Assembly: GCF_002854065.1 (NCBI RefSeq)
Contig: NZ_CP024147.1
DNA from: Escherichia coli
Lineage (GTDB): Bacteria; Pseudomonadota; Gammaproteobacteria; Enterobacterales; Enterobacteriaceae
Direction: 5' to 3' (one strand)
DNA: 64,000 bases
The notes beneath the pieces are model-generated. The model searched no databases, was not told the origin of the DNA, and saw only the letters and a list, made by a program, of their open reading frames with translations. Below, one piece after another: positions 42,874 through 48,302 of this stretch. Within the stretch, counting starts at the first letter, position 1; each line of letters opens with the position of its first letter. The position numbers and the translations under genes are program-made.

Positions 42874-43467
42874 ATGAATGAAATCATTTCTGCAGCAGTT
42901 TTATTGATCCTGATTATGGATCCGCTCGGAAACCTACCTATTTTCATGTCCGTACTGAAACATACTGAACCGAAAAGACGGCGGGCAATCATGGTGCGAG
43001 AGTTGCTTATTGCTCTCCTGGTGATGCTGGTGTTCCTGTTTGCGGGTGAGAAAATTCTGGCATTTCTCAGCCTACGAGCAGAAACCGTCTCCATTTCTGG
43101 CGGCATCATTCTGTTTCTAATTGCCATTAAGATGATTTTCCCCAGCGCTTCAGGAAATAGCAGCGGGCTTCCGGCAGGTGAAGAGCCATTTATCGTGCCG
43201 CTGGCAATTCCGCTGGTCGCCGGGCCAACTATTCTCGCCACGCTGATGTTGTTGTCTCATCAGTACCCGAATCAGATGGGACATCTGGTGATTGCTCTGC
43301 TGCTGGCCTGGGGCGGCACCTTTGTCATCCTGCTACAGTCTTCGCTATTTTTACGTCTGCTGGGCGAGAAAGGGGTGAACGCACTTGAACGCCTGATGGG
43401 ATTGATTCTGGTGATGATGGCAACCCAGATGTTCCTCGACGGCATTCGAATGTGGATGAAGGGGTAA
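42874..43467 (+). CDS. yhgN: MarC-family inner-membrane protein YhgN (197 aa)
   Basis: 197-aa hydrophobic ORF MNEIISAAVLLILIMDPLGNLPIFMSVL... Confidence 0.93.
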   Translation: MNEIISAAVLLILIMDPLGNLPIFMSVLKHTEPKRRRAIMVRELLIALLVMLVFLFAGEKILAFLSLRAETVSISGGIILFLIAIKMIFPSASGNSSGLPAGEEPFIVPLAIPLVAGPTILATLMLLSHQYPNQMGHLVIALLLAWGGTFVILLQSSLFLRLLGEKGVNALERLMGLILVMMATQMFLDGIRMWMKG

Positions 43468-43472
43468 GGTTC

Positions 43473-43510
43473 AAACAGGTGCTGCACACAACCAGACGCG
43501 GCACCTGTTT
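43473..43510. terminator. Hairpin between yhgN and the DprA-like gene (possible bidirectional terminator)
   Basis: AAACAGGTGC-18 nt-GCACCTGTTT 10-bp inverted repeat followed by TTTTATTACC. Confidence 0.45.
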
Positions 43511-43512
43511 TA

Positions 43513-44715
43513 TTACCTGAACTGATAATGACCTTCGCCCAATCGGATAACCCTTCCCTCTTCTTCTGCGCGGTTCAGCCACACACTAATTTGTTCGATG
43601 GTTAAACCAGTACAAGACGCCAGCCTTTCAATACTTATCGATTCCTTTGCAAGGATCGCCAGTTCCGCCACAAAGAGTTGATAAAAATCGACAGGCGTAT
43701 ACGCGGGCATTACTGCGTAATTTGCGTCATCTTCATGCAGCGAAAACAGTTCTGGTTGAGCGTTACGGAGTGCTCTGTCATACATCAGCCCAGGAACGTC
43801 TGGCAGTCTGATCGTCACATTCTCAGCCTGTTCAGCACTCCATGACGCCCCATTTTCTACTAATCGTGAATTGGCTGATTGCATATCCTGATTTGGTTTA
43901 ACCTGCACAGGCAGCCACTGATGTTTTAATGCCTCCATCGCCCCGGTTATCGTTCCACCGGTCATTCCCGCACGTACAACCATTGCGCTTTCAGCAAGGC
44001 AATAAATATATTTATTTCGCGCCATCGCATTGCCGACGGTGAAACGTACCTCTGGGTAAAACGGCGAAATCAACACCAGGTTGCCTGCTATAAGCCCTTC
44101 ACGCCATTTCACTAACGTACTCGTTTTTAACAAGCTATCAGCTAATACGCCAACGGCAGTTCCCCCGGCCTCCAGTACCGACGCCATTGCACATTCATCA
44201 ATACCTCGCGCACCACCAGAGATAACGCAAATCCCCTGTTGGGCCAGTTTCGCGGCCAGTTGTTGGGTATAGCGCAAATCGTCAGTCGGAGCATCTCGCG
44301 AGCCAACAATCGCCATACCTTCCGCTTGCAGTAATGCTTTATTCCCGCAGCCAAATAAAACGGGAGGTGCATCCGTTCGCAATCGGTTTTTCAAGCGAAC
44401 GGGATAATCAGCATCTCCGCGGGTTAAGATCCATAAACCGGCGCGTTGCCACTTATCTACCGCCAACGCCAGACTATGACCACGCGCCAGCAAGCCAAGA
44501 ATACGCTCCTGAGAAATACGCGGATCGCTCCAGCCTGTAAGTTTCTCTTGCGGTTGCGGCACCAGAAGCTCGGCGGGACTGATACGTTGGTGCTTCAGCC
44601 ATAATGCAAACTTCCCCCATTCACTATTACTAAGAGGTTTATACTCACTCGCCGCCGCGCGAGAAAAATCGCTGGTTAGCAGGAGAGTTGCTTGTGCATT
44701 GGCTGAAAGATTCAT
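43513..44715 (-). CDS. DprA/Smf-like Rossmann-fold protein (about 400 aa), candidate antitoxin of a PsyrTA/ShosTA-like module
   Basis: ORF 43513..44808; DprA signature MAIVGSRDAPTDDLRYTQQLAAKLAQQGICVISGGARGIDECAMASVLEAGGTAVGVLADSL; start favoured at MNLSANAQ, whose ATG overlaps the upstream TGA (ATGA-type coupling). Confidence 0.75.
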   Translation of the reverse strand: MNLSANAQATLLLTSDFSRAAASEYKPLSNSEWGKFALWLKHQRISPAELLVPQPQEKLTGWSDPRISQERILGLLARGHSLALAVDKWQRAGLWILTRGDADYPVRLKNRLRTDAPPVLFGCGNKALLQAEGMAIVGSRDAPTDDLRYTQQLAAKLAQQGICVISGGARGIDECAMASVLEAGGTAVGVLADSLLKTSTLVKWREGLIAGNLVLISPFYPEVRFTVGNAMARNKYIYCLAESAMVVRAGMTGGTITGAMEALKHQWLPVQVKPNQDMQSANSRLVENGASWSAEQAENVTIRLPDVPGLMYDRALRNAQPELFSLHEDDANYAVMPAYTPVDFYQLFVAELAILAKESISIERLASCTGLTIEQISVWLNRAEEEGRVIRLGEGHYQFR

Positions 44716-46822
44716 CAATTTTTTACCGAGGTAGAAGCAAGGGCAAGAGGATAAACCGTCGGGCAACCTGCCTGGCGTAACAGTGCTGTCAGAACTGTCA
44801 GCGTCCATGCAGAATCCACGATATCGTCAACCAGCAACGCCGGACCAGGCATCAAAGGAGGGGTAATCACAAACGCCCCGTCGAGATTTTGACACTGGTG
44901 GAAACGGTTTTGCTGCATTTTCTGCGGTGGATTGTCCACGACTTTTTCAATGGCATCAATAATAGGTAAGCCAAGTTTCGCCGCCAGTCGCCGGGCAAAA
45001 TCAGGAACCAGGTCGAGGTGCTTTAATGAAGGAACGCAGCATACCCAGGTTGGTTCAGGATGCGGATTCCAGCGTTGGCGAACCATTTCCGCACATGCCT
45101 CCACCAGTTCATCACTGAATCGCCCCGTTTTTTTCTCCTGTGCTACCTGCTTTCCCCACCCGGAATCTCCCCAACGAGAAAGGATTCGCCCCGTAGATCC
45201 TTGTAAAATCGCAGGCAAGTTCCCTTTAAATCCGTATTGCGTAAAAGCCCCAGCTGCCACCTGTTTATTGAGATTTAATGACAGGTCAGCGTGTTTAATA
45301 AATAAGTTTGCCGCATGGAGTAAGCCGCTATCAATGTCGGGCGACAACAACGGATGCTGAAGACAACTGCTACATTTACCACAATGTTCGGCACCTGGCT
45401 CATCGAGTGCGCGGCGCAGAAATTGCATTTTGCACTCCTTGGTCGTGATATAGCTTTCAACGTCTGCCAGCTCACTTTTTCTCTGATTCATCAAATGGTT
45501 AATTCGTTCATGGTCAGGAGAAAAACTGACAATTGTTCTGCGCCATAATTTCTCGGTATACACCACAGGCGATGGATTTTCAGCTACCAATAATTTCAGT
45601 GCTTTTTCTATTTGCCCATAACGGAGATTCGTCCGTTGTTCAATGCCTCGTAAGGTAAGACCGTCATTCACGCTAAGTACGTTGAGTATTTCATGAATTT
45701 GCGCCTCCGCAGGAAAGGCGCTTTCACGGAAGAATTTATGAATAGCACGGTCTTCACTGCCGCAAAGCAGTATGCCAACAGCAGAATCGATACCGCGACC
45801 GGCACGCCCCACCTGTTGGTAGTAACCAACTATCGAACCTGGCATCTGGTAATGAATAACAAACCCCAAATCCGGTTTGTCAAAGCCCATTCCCAGCGCC
45901 GTTGTCGCAACCAGCACTTTAATTTTATTTGCCAGCAACGCCTGCTCCAGATATTCCCTGGCAGTATTAGAATCTTCCGCGCCTTCACAAGTCACGCCGC
46001 TGTAGTAAGCAAATGCACTGATACCATTTTTCCTTAACCACTCGGCGACAAGTTCGGCATCGCGAGTAGTCAGGGTATAAACAATTCCCGATTTGGAAAA
46101 CTGAGGGAAAACTGAGGGATAACCGTTGCTAACCATGCCAGACGGGATGACTGTTCACCTAAGACTAAGGCATCAAGCGCCAAACTTTCGCGAGCCAGCG
46201 TTCCACGCTGAATCACAATGTCACCCAATTGCTGACGGATATCCTCAACGACACGGTTATTCGCTGTCGCGGTTGTACCCAGAACAGGGGTATTCGCAGG
46301 TAGTTGGCGCAAAATATCTAATATACGTCGGTAATCCGGGCGAAAATCGTGGCCCCAATCAGAGATGCAGTGCGCCTCGTCGACCACAAGCAAGCCAATA
46401 TGATCGGCTATAGGATATAAAACCGTTTCGATAAAGTCCTGGTTTGCCAAACGTTCCGGGGAAACCAGCAAGCAATCGACCTCACCTTGCAGCAACTTAT
46501 CGCTAATGCGCTGCCATTCTTCTCTGTTTGTAGAATTCAACGTTTCAGCCGTAATACCTAACCGTTCAGCGGCGGCAACCTGGTTACGCATCAGGGCAAG
46601 CAAAGGAGAGATGATAATTGTCGGGCCAGCGCCGCGATCGCGGAAGATTTTACTGGCGATGAAGTACACAGCACTTTTCCCCCAGCCAGTGCGTTGGACA
46701 ACCAGCAGTTTTCGCCGTTGGTTCACCACCGCGTCTATGGCTTCCCATTGCCCTTCCCTGAAAGTAGCGGTGGTATTTCCTAACATCCGCTGTAAAAGCA
46801 ATTCAGCTGCGTGCTTTTCCAT
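44715..46822 (-). pseudogene. RecQ-like helicase fused to a C-terminal PRTase domain (PsyrT/RqlH-like toxin candidate), frameshifted by an 11-bp tandem duplication
   Basis: ORF 46070..46822 has helicase motifs I-III (QRTGWGKS, VVDEAHCISDWGHDFRPDYRRI, GTTATA); ORF 44715..46136 in another frame has helicase motifs IV-VI (YQQVGRAGRG) and a PRTase motif (LLVDDIVDSAWT); deleting one repeat copy at 46096..46117 joins them into about 698 aa. Confidence 0.75.
46095..46119. repeat. 11-bp perfect tandem duplication (GAAAACTGAGG x2) inside the helicase gene
   Basis: Forward ...tttgGAAAACTGAGGGAAAACTGAGGgat...; on the coding strand both frames read PQFS across the copies. Confidence 0.9.
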
Positions 46823-46924
46823 CTTTATCTCCTGCGATCTTTAGGCAGTGATTAGAACGGATTATTTGCAGGTAAATTTGCGAGAGAGATCAAAAAGATG
46901 AAGAGAGGAGAAAAGAGAAATGAA

Positions 46925-46948
46925 TTACTGCGAGCAAGCTCGCAGTAA
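46925..46948 (-). terminator. Hairpin downstream of gntU (candidate terminator)
   Basis: TTACTGCGAGC-aa-GCTCGCAGTAA perfect inverted repeat, then TTCATTTCTCTTTTCTCC on the minus strand; sits between the gntU stop and the helicase start. Confidence 0.5.
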
Positions 46949-46961
46949 TTTGTCGCAGTAA

Positions 46962-48302
46962 TTAACTCAACAGCTGGAACGCAATCATCCCAACGATGGC
47001 ACCGACAGTGCCGAGGATGGTTTCCATCATGGTCCAGGTTTTCAGCGTTTCGGCTTCGGTCGCGCCGGTAAATTTACCGAACAACCAGAAACCAGCGTCG
47101 TTAACGTGGCTGACAACAATCGAACCACCGGCGATACAAATCGACAGCGCCGCCATTTGCGCACCGGAGTAGTTCAGTTGTTCAATAACCGGCATCACCA
47201 GTCCCACCGCCGTTAAACAGGCAACGGTTGCAGAACCCTGAATGATGCGCACTGCAGCGGCCAGCACGAAGCAGGTGATGGCAATCGGCAGGCCCATGCC
47301 GGTTAACGCTTCGCCCAGTGCCGGACCTACGCCAGAGTCAACCAGCACCTGTTTGAACACGCCGCCCGCACCAATCACCAGCAGAATGATCCCCGCCGGT
47401 TGCAGCGCGTGACCGCAAATATCCATCACTTTGTCTTTTGGCATGCCCTGACGCATTGCCAGGCCATAAATCGCTACCAGACAAGCAACCAGAATCGCGG
47501 TAAACGGATGACCAATAAACTCGAACCATTCGTAAGCGGTAGAGCCTTCCGGCACAAAACGCGCGGCAATGGTTTTCAGCCCCACCAGCACCAGCGGCAG
47601 CAGGATCAGCGACAGGCTGAATCCGAAGGACGGCATTTTGCCTTCGCCGAGATGCGGCTCGCTGATGTCGTCAGGAATATGCAGCTCAACGTAACGGCTG
47701 ATGAAGTTACCCCACAGCGGCCCGGCAATAATCATTCCCGGAATTGCCGCACACAGGCCAATCAGGATCATCCAGCCAAAATCGGCGTTCATCTGCGATG
47801 CCAGCAGCATTGGCGCTGGCCCAGGCACCAGGAACGCCGCCGCGGCCGCCACGCCTGCGAATAATGGGATTACCAGCTTCACCAGGTTCGTACCGGTGTG
47901 GCGCGCCATTGAGAAAGCAACGCTAATCAGCAGAACAATCGCCACTTCAAAGAACAGCGGTAGCGCACAGACCAGCCCCGCAAGGCCGATGGCATAATGC
48001 GCGCGGCTGTGACCGAAGGATTTGAGCATTTTGACGGCAATCTGATCGACTGCGCCGGTTTCATGTAAGATCTTGCCAAACATAGCTCCCAGGGCGACAA
48101 CCACCGCCAGGAAGCCGAGGGTGCCTCCCATCCCTTTTTCCATCGTCGCTGCGATTTTATCGAGCGGCATACCGGAAAAAAGGCCAGCCCCCATGGACAC
48201 CACCATTAAAGCCAGGAAAGCGTGCATACGCGCCTTCATGACTAAAAACAGCAGCAGTAAAACAGACCCTACTGCTGTTAAAACAAGCGTTAATGTAGTC
48301 AC
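46962..48302 (-). CDS. gntU: Low-affinity gluconate transporter GntU (446 aa)
   Basis: 446-aa polytopic ORF MTTLTLVLTAVGSVLLLLFLVMKARMHAFLALMVV..., GntP family. Confidence 0.95.
   Translation of the reverse strand: MTTLTLVLTAVGSVLLLLFLVMKARMHAFLALMVVSMGAGLFSGMPLDKIAATMEKGMGGTLGFLAVVVALGAMFGKILHETGAVDQIAVKMLKSFGHSRAHYAIGLAGLVCALPLFFEVAIVLLISVAFSMARHTGTNLVKLVIPLFAGVAAAAAFLVPGPAPMLLASQMNADFGWMILIGLCAAIPGMIIAGPLWGNFISRYVELHIPDDISEPHLGEGKMPSFGFSLSLILLPLVLVGLKTIAARFVPEGSTAYEWFEFIGHPFTAILVACLVAIYGLAMRQGMPKDKVMDICGHALQPAGIILLVIGAGGVFKQVLVDSGVGPALGEALTGMGLPIAITCFVLAAAVRIIQGSATVACLTAVGLVMPVIEQLNYSGAQMAALSICIAGGSIVVSHVNDAGFWLFGKFTGATEAETLKTWTMMETILGTVGAIVGMIAFQLLS

What the first reader, a model, noticed from the sequence alone, without database searches (positions are those of the whole stretch)
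46823..46961. Junction between gntU and the inserted module: perfect hairpin plus short direct repeat
The 139-bp spacer contains TTACTGCGAGC-aa-GCTCGCAGTAA (a perfect 11-bp inverted repeat) and a nearby partial direct copy ATTACTGCGA, followed on the minus strand by a C/T-rich tract and an AGGAGA Shine-Dalgarno sequence for the helicase gene. This may be the gntU terminator reused as the upstream boundary of the insertion, or a footprint of the insertion event itself.
Basis: seen in the sequence. Interest (0 to 1): 0.3.

Follow-up and report, generated by a model that had tools for sequence, protein, structure and literature searches.

The report
gntU terminator hairpin before PsyrTA module
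The hairpin is real and is most likely an ordinary transcription-terminator stem-loop ending the gluconate transporter gene gntU, keeping that operon's transcription out of the adjacent, already known PsyrTA (RqlHI) toxin-antitoxin/phage-defence genes; it is not a scar of an insertion event.

Summary
The inverted repeat is 13/13 bp (46923-46935 / 46938-46950, 2-nt gap). The direct repeat is 11/11 nt (46940-50 and 46953-63) and overlaps the gntU stop codon by 2 nt.

The "inserted module" is the known PsyrTA/RqlHI toxin-antitoxin defence pair. Its toxin gene is a pseudogene in this O157:H7 window.

Against K-12, homology stops exactly at the yhgN and gntU stop codons. K-12's 56-bp spacer, with a different hairpin, is replaced by 3,494 bp with no similarity above chance. 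No repeat flanks the segment and it carries no mobility genes.

The locus is strictly biallelic in 5,424 E. coli genomes: 1,650 with the module and 3,774 K-12-type.

The same gntU-hairpin-psyrT arrangement, with a ~140-nt spacer, occurs in at least seven further enterobacterial lineages whose PsyrT is only 67-75% identical. The top of the stem (CTGCGAG/CTCGCAG) is conserved and the lower stem shows compensatory changes.

Best reading: an inherited intrinsic-terminator-like hairpin plus a pyrimidine-rich tract that ends gntU transcripts and insulates psyrTA.

The perfect direct repeat is seen only in E. coli and is a local 13-bp duplication; one genome has lost a unit. Ordinary kind, low interest.

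The parts
46962..46964 (-). gntU stop codon (TAA). The right-hand breakpoint between the two alleles lies immediately 3' of it.
   Evidence: ORF list. All 3,774 K-12-type genomes align only from query position 263 = 46962. The reciprocal search breaks at K-12 locus position 2501 = the gntU stop. The 60 nt of gntU next to the breakpoint are identical in K-12 and in the window.
46953..46963 (-). Outer copy of the 11-nt direct repeat (AATTACTGCGA on the minus strand). It starts in the AA of the stop codon.
   Evidence: D2, 100%. Strain HB6 lacks exactly one 13-bp unit. The stop-proximal segment TTA..CTG is partly conserved in the Citrobacter-like lineages L087, L088 and L090.
46938..46950 (-). 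5' arm of the hairpin as read on the gntU transcript (AAUUACUGCGAGC). It contains the inner direct-repeat copy (46940-46950).
   Evidence: RNAalifold and pair counts on 8 lineages.
46936..46937 (-). Centre of the hairpin. The folded structure opens the innermost pair to give the 4-nt loop CUUG.
46923..46935 (-). 3' arm of the hairpin (GCUCGCAGUAAUU).
   Evidence: The core CTGCGAG-N4-CTCGCAG occurs once in the 64-kb window, against 0.01 expected.
46877..46922 (-). Pyrimidine-rich, G-poor tract after the hairpin (CAUUUCUCUUUUCUCCUCUCUUCAUCUUUUUGAUCUCUCUCGCAAA). Its start is the T-rich terminator tail. It contains a TTGAT block (46888-46893) whose TGAT is invariant and an adjacent conserved TCRCAAA block.
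   Evidence: Tail scored by the terminator scan. Composition in nine junction sequences. Invariant columns T79 G80 A81 T82, T88 C89.
46851..46856 (-). TCTAAT, a -10-like hexamer conserved as nTnAAT / TAAAT in all lineages. It is a candidate psyrTA promoter element, inferred only; no -35 match.
   Evidence: Alignment A4. The consensus scan found no promoter on this strand.
46820..46833 (-). Shine-Dalgarno AGGAGA (46833-46828) and the ATG (46822-46820) of psyrT/rqlH.
   Evidence: GG and ATG are invariant.
44715..46822 (-). psyrT (rqlH): a RecQ-like helicase fused to a phosphoribosyltransferase-domain toxin. Here it is a pseudogene, broken by an 11-bp tandem duplication (TCCCTCAGTTT x2) at 46109-46119.
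   Evidence: PADLOC PsyrT E=0, and Pfam DEAD, Helicase_C, weak Pribosyltran. RefSeq note 'frameshifted; internal stop'. Lesion mapped.
43513..44808 (-). psyrA (rqlI): the DprA-like antitoxin, intact.
   Evidence: PADLOC PsyrA E=4.6e-202 and Pfam DNA_processg_A. Annotation.
43473..43510 (.). Hairpin at the other junction (AAACAGGTGC...GCACCTGTTT) in the 45-bp psyrA-yhgN spacer. It is unrelated in sequence to the gntU-side hairpin.
43468..46961 (.). The whole allele-specific segment (3,494 bp) that stands in place of K-12's 56-bp yhgN-gntU spacer.

Best explanation
The stem-loop is the 3'-end hairpin of the gntU (gntKU/gntRKU) transcript in the psyrTA-bearing allele of this locus. It is an intrinsic-terminator-like element: a 12-13 bp stem of about -17 kcal/mol, followed by a T-rich, then C/T-rich and G-poor, tract.

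RNA polymerase arriving from the gluconate operon would stop, or the transcript would be trimmed back to the hairpin. As a result, the toxin-antitoxin operon psyrT-psyrA, 139 nt downstream on the same strand, would be transcribed from its own weak signals rather than by gluconate-driven read-through.

The hairpin is not the K-12 terminator and not an insertion scar. It is an inherited part of an old 'gntU-hairpin-psyrTA' arrangement that segregates against a module-less allele with a different hairpin.

The perfect 11-nt direct repeat is a secondary, E. coli-only local event: a 13-bp tandem-type duplication or homogenisation of the 5' arm. I assign it no function.

Shown here: the anatomy, the breakpoints, the population frequencies, the conservation and the covariation. 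Inferred: that termination actually occurs there, and that insulation of the toxin gene is the selected function.
For: Position and form:
- The hairpin starts 15 nt after the gntU stop, on the gntU strand.
- It is the only terminator-like hit on that strand in 43300-47200.
- It dominates the MFE and centroid folds. The local fold is -17.2 kcal/mol, against -19.6 for the K-12 fold that contains the K-12 hairpin.

The two alleles carry analogous elements. K-12-type genomes have a different hairpin plus TTCTTTTCG at the same place.

Selection on structure, across eight lineages with PsyrT only 67-75% identical between genera:
- 83% of cells are paired.
- 7 pairs carry changes on both sides.
- The covariation score is 0.367 against 0.125 in shuffles (0 of 500 reach it). 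Slid controls give 27-51% paired.
- RNAalifold independently returns the same 12-bp helix with 5 covarying pairs.

Within E. coli, all 1,650 module-bearing genomes keep the 100-nt terminator region at 98% identity or better, in single copy. It is absent from the other genomes.

The tract after the hairpin is pyrimidine-rich and G-poor in every lineage.

[quoted passage not shown] E. coli PsyrTA systems share genomic context, conserved upstream regions and correlated expression (bioRxiv 10.64898/2025.12.14.694197).
Against: No transcript 3'-end data were available, so termination is not shown.

The U-tract is interrupted in E. coli (CAUUUCUCUUUU). It is poor in the Citrobacter-like and Silvania lineages. 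The element may therefore be a weak or leaky terminator, or mainly a 3' stabiliser.

The top 7 bp of the stem are conserved in sequence, not only in pairing. A plain terminator does not require this.

No sigma-70-like promoter was detected for psyrT in the spacer, which leaves room for read-through contributing to psyrTA expression.

The published RT-PCR did not test the gntU-rqlH junction.
Confidence: 0.7

Rival explanations
1. The hairpin is mainly an mRNA 3'-end protector or processing stop. Actual termination of gntU transcription would be Rho-dependent, loaded on the untranslated C-rich, G-poor tract that follows. The hairpin would only define and stabilise the mature gntU 3' end.
For: The 60 nt after the hairpin have C 13-20 against G 3-9 in all nine junction sequences examined. 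This is the composition expected of Rho loading sites (established knowledge). The U-tract is imperfect in several lineages.
Against: In E. coli, L090, L028 and L098 the stem is directly followed by T-rich runs that satisfy a terminator scan. The two mechanisms are not exclusive, and both give the same insulation.
Confidence: 0.15
2. The palindrome is a double-stranded DNA operator (CTGCGAG-N4-CTCGCAG) bound by a dimeric regulator, for example the antitoxin PsyrA/RqlI, which would autoregulate the toxin-antitoxin operon.
For: The 7-bp half-sites are nearly invariant across lineages while the rest of the spacer diverges. Toxin-antitoxin operons are commonly autoregulated at palindromes (general knowledge).
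Against: The bases flanking the conserved core change, but stay complementary: 5 pairs carry double changes. That is expected for a folded single strand, not for a protein-read duplex.

The centre of the palindrome lies about 80 nt upstream of the only conserved -10-like block and about 115 nt from the ATG.

PsyrTA homologues in other contexts (within type I R-M operons, on islands, after glmS) have no such palindrome.
Confidence: 0.06
3. The hairpin and/or the direct repeat are a footprint of how the module arrived: a target-site duplication, a recombination site, or a terminal repeat of a mobile element.
For: The outer repeat copy abuts the allele breakpoint. Downstream-junction hairpins in some lineages also contain CTGCG/CGCAG.
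Against: Both repeat copies are at one end, and there is none at the yhgN junction.

The empty site has no copy and no similarity to the segment.

The segment holds only psyrT and psyrA, with no integrase or transposase.

No near-identical copies occur on plasmids or phages.

The sequence is single-copy per genome.

The junction is shared by lineages with 67-75% identical PsyrT, so it long predates any recent event.

The perfect repeat is seen only in E. coli.
Confidence: 0.03

Closest known systems
Rho-independent (intrinsic) transcription terminators of enterobacterial operons, e.g. the hairpin after gntU in K-12
   Same: A GC-cored stem-loop with a short loop. It lies just downstream of the last stop codon on the coding strand and is followed by a T-rich tail. 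Its stability is comparable to the K-12 element at the same position.
   Different: The sequence is unrelated to the K-12 hairpin. The U-tract is interrupted. The upper 7 bp are conserved in sequence across genera, which is more than a generic terminator needs.
PsyrTA / RqlHI toxin-antitoxin and anti-phage system (Sberro 2013; Russell & Mulvey 2015, PMC4670107; Millman 2022, bioRxiv 10.1101/2022.05.11.491447)
   Same: The two genes downstream of the hairpin match the PADLOC PsyrT and PsyrA models end to end. They have the published order, toxin then antitoxin.
   Different: In this O157:H7 window the toxin gene is frameshifted. The searched literature does not mention the gntU junction or its hairpin.
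REP-like extragenic palindromes that follow gntU in module-less Citrobacter, Pseudescherichia and related species
   Same: They occupy the same position after the gntU stop and are also hairpins.
   Different: REP elements are multi-copy families (own knowledge). Here, one Citrobacter locus (L017) carries the palindrome as a tandem array, whereas the CTGCGAG hairpin is single-copy per genome and tied to psyrTA.
Target-site duplications of transposable elements and islands
   Same: A short perfect direct repeat lies next to a presence/absence breakpoint.
   Different: The repeats do not flank the segment. There is no mobility gene. The empty site has no copy.

Membership tests
Intrinsic (Rho-independent) terminator | Stable GC-containing stem-loop with a short loop | tested here: met
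   12 pairs (5 G-C) and a 4-nt loop, about -17 kcal/mol.
Intrinsic (Rho-independent) terminator | Uninterrupted U-tract immediately 3' of the stem | tested here: inconclusive
   The E. coli tail CAUUUCUCUU passes a lenient rule of 5 T in 8 but is interrupted. The tails of L087, L088 and L061 are poor; those of L090, L028 and L098 are better.
Intrinsic (Rho-independent) terminator | Lies downstream of the last gene of an operon, on its strand, before the next transcription unit | tested here: met
   It starts 15 nt after the gntU stop and ends 100 nt before the psyrT ATG, on the same strand.
Intrinsic (Rho-independent) terminator | Transcript 3' ends map to the tail; termination in vitro | not testable with these tools
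   No transcriptome or biochemical data were accessible.
Conserved structured RNA element | Base pairs kept through compensatory changes in independent lineages | tested here: met
   7 of 15 pairs carry double changes, 0 of 500 shuffles reach the score, and slid controls are far lower. RNAalifold finds 5 covarying pairs. No Rfam family matches; the best E-value is 0.5.
Target-site duplication / insertion footprint | Direct repeats flank the inserted segment, one at each end | tested here: not met
   The copies lie at 46940-50 and 46953-63 only. There is none near 43468-43512.
Target-site duplication / insertion footprint | The empty site carries one copy of the repeat | tested here: not met
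   The K-12, E. albertii and Escherichia sp. spacers lack TTACTGCGA. There is no similarity above chance.
Mobile element / genomic island | Integrase, transposase or terminal inverted repeats; copies in other replicons or sites | tested here: not met
   The segment holds only psyrT and psyrA. It occupies one chromosomal site in all 1,650 genomes. The only plasmid relative is at 66% identity, and there are no phage copies.
REP/BIME repeated palindromes | Many copies per genome | tested here: not met
   A median of one place per genome, and only in module-bearing genomes. It occurs once in the 64-kb window.
PsyrTA / RqlHI system (the adjacent module) | A RecQ-like helicase + PRTase toxin followed by a DprA-like antitoxin | tested here: met
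   PADLOC PsyrT E=0 and PsyrA E=4.6e-202. Pfam DEAD, Helicase_C, weak Pribosyltran, and DNA_processg_A.
PsyrTA / RqlHI system (the adjacent module) | Intact toxin gene | tested here: not met
   In this window an 11-bp duplication splits the reading frame. It is intact in other strains.

The most novel reading that the evidence does not exclude
The hairpin, whose 7-bp top is conserved in sequence, may be more than a stop signal. Together with the conserved downstream blocks (TTGAT...TCRCAAA...TAAAT), it could be a dedicated leader that sets how much gluconate-operon read-through reaches the toxin gene. Alternatively it could be bound as a folded strand by the DprA-like antitoxin. Either way, PsyrTA activity would be tied to gluconate use in the gut. 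This would explain why the enterobacterial PsyrTA clade has stayed glued to gntU while its proteins diverged to about 70% identity.
Probability: 0.08. Interest if true: 0.5.

Novelty: new member of a known kind. Interest (0 to 1): 0.2.

Why it matters
On its own this is an ordinary terminator-like hairpin. What the analysis settles:

- It shows how the yhgN-gntU presence/absence polymorphism in E. coli is built. It is a clean swap of the whole intergenic region at the two stop codons: 30% of complete genomes carry PsyrTA and 70% do not.
- It shows that the PsyrTA allele, including its upstream hairpin, is old and shared with Citrobacter, Klebsiella, Silvania and other enterobacteria.
- It removes a false lead, the supposed insertion scar.

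The practical consequences are modest. Anyone cloning or deleting rqlHI/psyrTA, or interpreting its expression, should treat the 139-bp spacer as a conserved unit. That unit probably contains the gntU terminator and the native psyrTA control region.

Tried and rejected
- Rfam scan of 46600-47200 at E-value up to 10: only chance-level hits.
- Consensus promoter scan: nothing on the minus strand of the spacer. The psyrT promoter is therefore left as an inferred -10-like block.
- Local alignment of K-12's 56-bp spacer to the module and to its ends: no better than shuffles. This rejects a simple insertion into, or deletion from, the K-12 sequence.
- Search for the repeat unit elsewhere in the window: no copy at the other junction. 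This rejects a target-site duplication.
- Plasmid and phage collections: no close copy of the module or the junction.
- Unbiased metagenome scan with the hairpin pattern WWGCTGCGAGNNNNCTCGCAGCWW: 30 hits. Two are enterobacterial junctions that carry both gntU and psyrT. The other 28 are unrelated, mostly high-GC contigs, roughly the number I estimated for chance. No case of the hairpin next to gntU without the module was found.
- Literature: no paper in the library mentions both yhgN and gntU. No open paper was found on the gntU terminator.
- Alternative pairing of the outer repeat copy with the 3' arm (I3): considered as an attenuator. Rejected because both pairings leave the same hairpin-plus-tail, and the repeat is missing in other genera.
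- A 16-codon ORF on the plus strand (46898-46948): I took it to be spurious, because the sequence beneath it is not conserved in other lineages.

Full report
**What is there**

The window is E. coli O157:H7; it is 100% identical to NZ_AP018488 over the region tested. The finding covers the 139-bp spacer between the stop codon of gntU (46962-46964, minus strand) and the ATG of a RecQ-like gene (46822-46820, minus strand).

The inverted repeat is longer than reported. It is 13/13 bp, AATTACTGCGAGC / GCTCGCAGTAATT, at 46923-46935 and 46938-46950, with 2 nt between the arms. The direct repeat is 11/11 nt, TCGCAGTAATT, at 46940-46950 and 46953-46963. The outer copy runs 2 nt into the gntU stop codon.

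In 20,000 dinucleotide-preserving shuffles of the spacer, none gave a perfect inverted repeat of 13 bp or more, and 0.27% gave a direct repeat of 11 nt or more. The C/T-rich tract and the AGGAGA Shine-Dalgarno sequence on the minus strand are also present.

**What the "inserted module" is**

The two genes between yhgN and gntU match the PADLOC models PsyrT (E=0, full length) and PsyrA (E=4.6e-202). Pfam finds DEAD, Helicase_C and a weak phosphoribosyltransferase domain in the first, and DprA (DNA_processg_A) in the second.

This is the known PsyrTA toxin-antitoxin / anti-phage system. In extraintestinal pathogenic E. coli it is called RqlHI (PMC4670107; bioRxiv 10.1101/2022.05.11.491447). In this O157:H7 window the toxin gene is a pseudogene, broken by an 11-bp tandem duplication at 46109-46119.

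**Breakpoints**

K-12 has a 56-bp yhgN-gntU spacer: CGAGGAGAGTTTTTCGAAAAGAACCCGGTAGCGTCACAACTACCGGGCGAACAAAC. In the window, 3,494 bp (43468-46961) stand in its place.

The 60 nt of yhgN and the 60 nt of gntU next to the breakpoints are identical in the two strains. The first differing base on each side directly follows the stop codon. The K-12 spacer has no similarity above chance to the 3,494-bp segment or to its ends; 211 of 300 and 255 of 300 shuffles respectively score at least as well.

The difference is therefore a swap of the complete intergenic region. It is not an insertion into the K-12 sequence.

No copy of the repeat lies at the yhgN-side junction. The segment encodes no integrase or transposase. 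No close copy exists on plasmids or phages. A target-site duplication or other insertion footprint is not supported.

**Population**

Of 5,426 complete E. coli genomes, 5,424 have the locus. Of these, 1,650 carry the module-type junction and 3,774 the K-12-type junction, with no third state.

The 100 nt that hold the hairpin, the repeat and the tail are at least 98% identical in all 1,650 module-bearing genomes. This stretch is single-copy and absent from the others.

One genome, HB6, has an exact 13-bp deletion that removes one repeat unit, so the hairpin starts at the stop codon. This shows that the repeat behaves as a slippage-prone tandem-type duplication.

Between two E. coli module alleles, the first ~85 nt after gntU are almost invariant. 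The promoter-proximal part of the spacer and the 5' end of psyrT differ by about 9%.

**Other genera**

A scan of one genome per species with GntU returned 80 enterobacterial loci. The interval after gntU is highly variable, from about 45 bp to more than 2.5 kb.

E. albertii, an unnamed Escherichia species and the E. coli representative have the K-12-type hairpin. Citrobacter, Pseudescherichia and others have REP-like palindromes at that place.

PsyrTA follows gntU directly in Klebsiella grimontii (L028) and Silvania hatchlandensis (L061). Looking up PsyrT homologues gave the same picture. Every homologue looked up with at least 68% identity lies directly 3' of gntU, with a 140-144 nt spacer. 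These are C. freundii L086/L087 and the unnamed contigs L088/L089, L090, L094 and L098. Two further junctions came from an unbiased hairpin-pattern scan of metagenomes.

Homologues of 66% identity or less are elsewhere. They lie between or just after type I restriction-modification genes (L091, L092, L099/L100), in an island with recombinase and transposase genes (L093), or after glmS while dragging a remnant of an hsdS 3' end (L096/L097). None of these has the hairpin.

PsyrT is only 67-75% identical between genera, while GntU is 94-99% identical. The gntU-psyrTA linkage is therefore old.

**The hairpin is conserved as a structure**

All gntU-linked junctions have a stem-loop 15-20 nt after the gntU stop. 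The upper stem is nearly invariant (CTGCGAG-N4-CTCGCAG). The lower stem differs between lineages but stays complementary:

- E. coli: AATTA/TAATT
- Citrobacter-like: TATTG/CAATA
- Silvania: CATAAG/CTTATG
- Klebsiella: TAGCG/CGCTA

On the eight-sequence alignment, 83% of cells pair. Seven of 15 pairs have changes on both sides. The covariation score is 0.367 against 0.125 ± 0.033 in shuffles (0 of 500 reach it). Sliding the partner columns drops pairing to 27-51%. RNAalifold independently predicts the same 12-bp helix with five covarying pairs.

The exact core occurs in 10 of the 95 loci held at that point, all of them gntU-psyrT junctions, and in none of the module-less gntU loci. No Rfam family matches.

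**How it most likely works**

On the gntU strand the element looks like an intrinsic terminator. It has 12 pairs and a 4-nt loop at about -17 kcal/mol, followed by CAUUUCUCUUUU. It is the only such site on that strand between yhgN and gntU.

The K-12 allele has an unrelated hairpin plus UUCUUUUCG at the same place. Each allele therefore carries its own gntU terminator.

After the hairpin, every lineage has a pyrimidine-rich, G-poor stretch (C 13-20 against G 3-9 in 60 nt). This composition would also favour Rho loading on the untranslated RNA (established knowledge; inference here).

The likely role is to end gluconate-operon transcripts and shield the toxin-antitoxin operon from read-through. 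[quoted passage not shown]

Several points are not shown or remain open:

- Termination at the hairpin has not been demonstrated.
- The U-tract is imperfect and is weak in some lineages.
- No sigma-70-like promoter was found in the spacer.
- The sequence conservation of the upper stem exceeds what a generic terminator needs.

I therefore give the terminator/insulator reading 0.7, a hairpin-as-3'-stabiliser with Rho termination 0.15, a duplex operator 0.06, and an insertion footprint 0.03. The operator is disfavoured because the flanks covary rather than stay fixed or drift, and because the palindrome lies about 80 nt from the only conserved -10-like block.

**The direct repeat**

The perfect 11-nt repeat is seen only in E. 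coli. In the Citrobacter-like lineages the stop-proximal segment is homologous (TTA..CTG) but matches the hairpin arm at only about 8 of 13 positions. In Klebsiella it does not match.

Lineage L090 has its own 7-nt repeat (CTGTTGC) at the same place. Together with the HB6 deletion, this points to recurrent local slippage or homogenisation of the 5' arm. It does not point to a functional element or an insertion scar. Either repeat copy can pair with the 3' arm (I3), and both pairings leave the same tail, so no switch is implied.

**Verdict**

The footprint reading is rejected.

The element is a new, undescribed example of a very well known kind. The adjacent module is already known. Interest is low (0.2). 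The one feature worth a follow-up experiment is the cross-genus conservation of the hairpin's upper stem and of the gntU-psyrTA linkage.

Noticed in passing
window 46109-46119 (within psyrT, 44715-46822, minus strand): The O157:H7 psyrT/rqlH toxin gene is inactivated by an 11-bp tandem duplication (TCCCTCAGTTT x2) relative to the intact 698-aa genes of other E. coli. The antitoxin gene psyrA stays intact.
   Followed up: yes
window 44713-44808: The annotated psyrA start (44808, 431 aa) overlaps psyrT by 94 nt. The PADLOC match begins at residue 32, and homologues are 394-401 aa. Met32 (ATG at 44715-44713) overlaps the psyrT stop by 1 nt, so the true start is probably there, giving translational coupling.
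   Followed up: partly
L095 (E. coli HB6, NZ_CP040305) 353-376, equivalent to window 46940-46952: One of the 1,650 module-bearing genomes has an exact 13-bp deletion of one direct-repeat unit, leaving the hairpin abutting the gntU stop codon.
   Followed up: yes
window 43468-43512; L087, L088, L094, L061 downstream junctions: The psyrA-yhgN spacer holds its own hairpin (AAACAGGTGC...GCACCTGTTT in E. coli). In C. freundii, L094 and Silvania the downstream hairpins differ but contain CTGCG/CGCAG-like cores reminiscent of the upstream hairpin (for example L094, TTACTGCGGCC-GGAA-GGTCGCAGT). Whether this is chance was not tested.
   Followed up: partly
L006-L085 (gntU loci of 80 enterobacterial species): The interval after gntU is a hypervariable spot across Enterobacteriaceae. 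It ranges from about 45 bp to more than 2.5 kb and includes REP-like palindromes, sometimes in tandem arrays (L017). No yhgN homologue was found between gntU and asd in the Klebsiella and Raoultella loci.
   Followed up: partly
L091, L092, L099/L100 (type I R-M operons); L096/L097 (after glmS): More distant PsyrTA homologues (about 65-66% identity) follow hsdS with a 14-15 nt gap, and in L092 are followed by hsdR. The copy after glmS still carries a recognisable remnant of an hsdS 3' end in its upstream spacer, which suggests it was captured from an R-M-embedded ancestor.
   Followed up: partly
psyrT of L003 versus window (gene positions 1-150, 301-450, 901-1050): Divergence between E. coli psyrT alleles is patchy, with 17-26 differences per 150 nt in some blocks and 2-5 in others. 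The block boundary in the spacer lies about 85 nt after the gntU stop. This pattern suggests recombination mosaics.
   Followed up: partly
window 46888-46893, 46877-46883, 46851-46856: Three short blocks in the spacer are conserved across genera at fixed spacing: TTGAT, TCRCAAA, and a -10-like nTnAAT about 31 nt further on. They may be the native psyrTA control region. No -35 match was found.
   Followed up: partly
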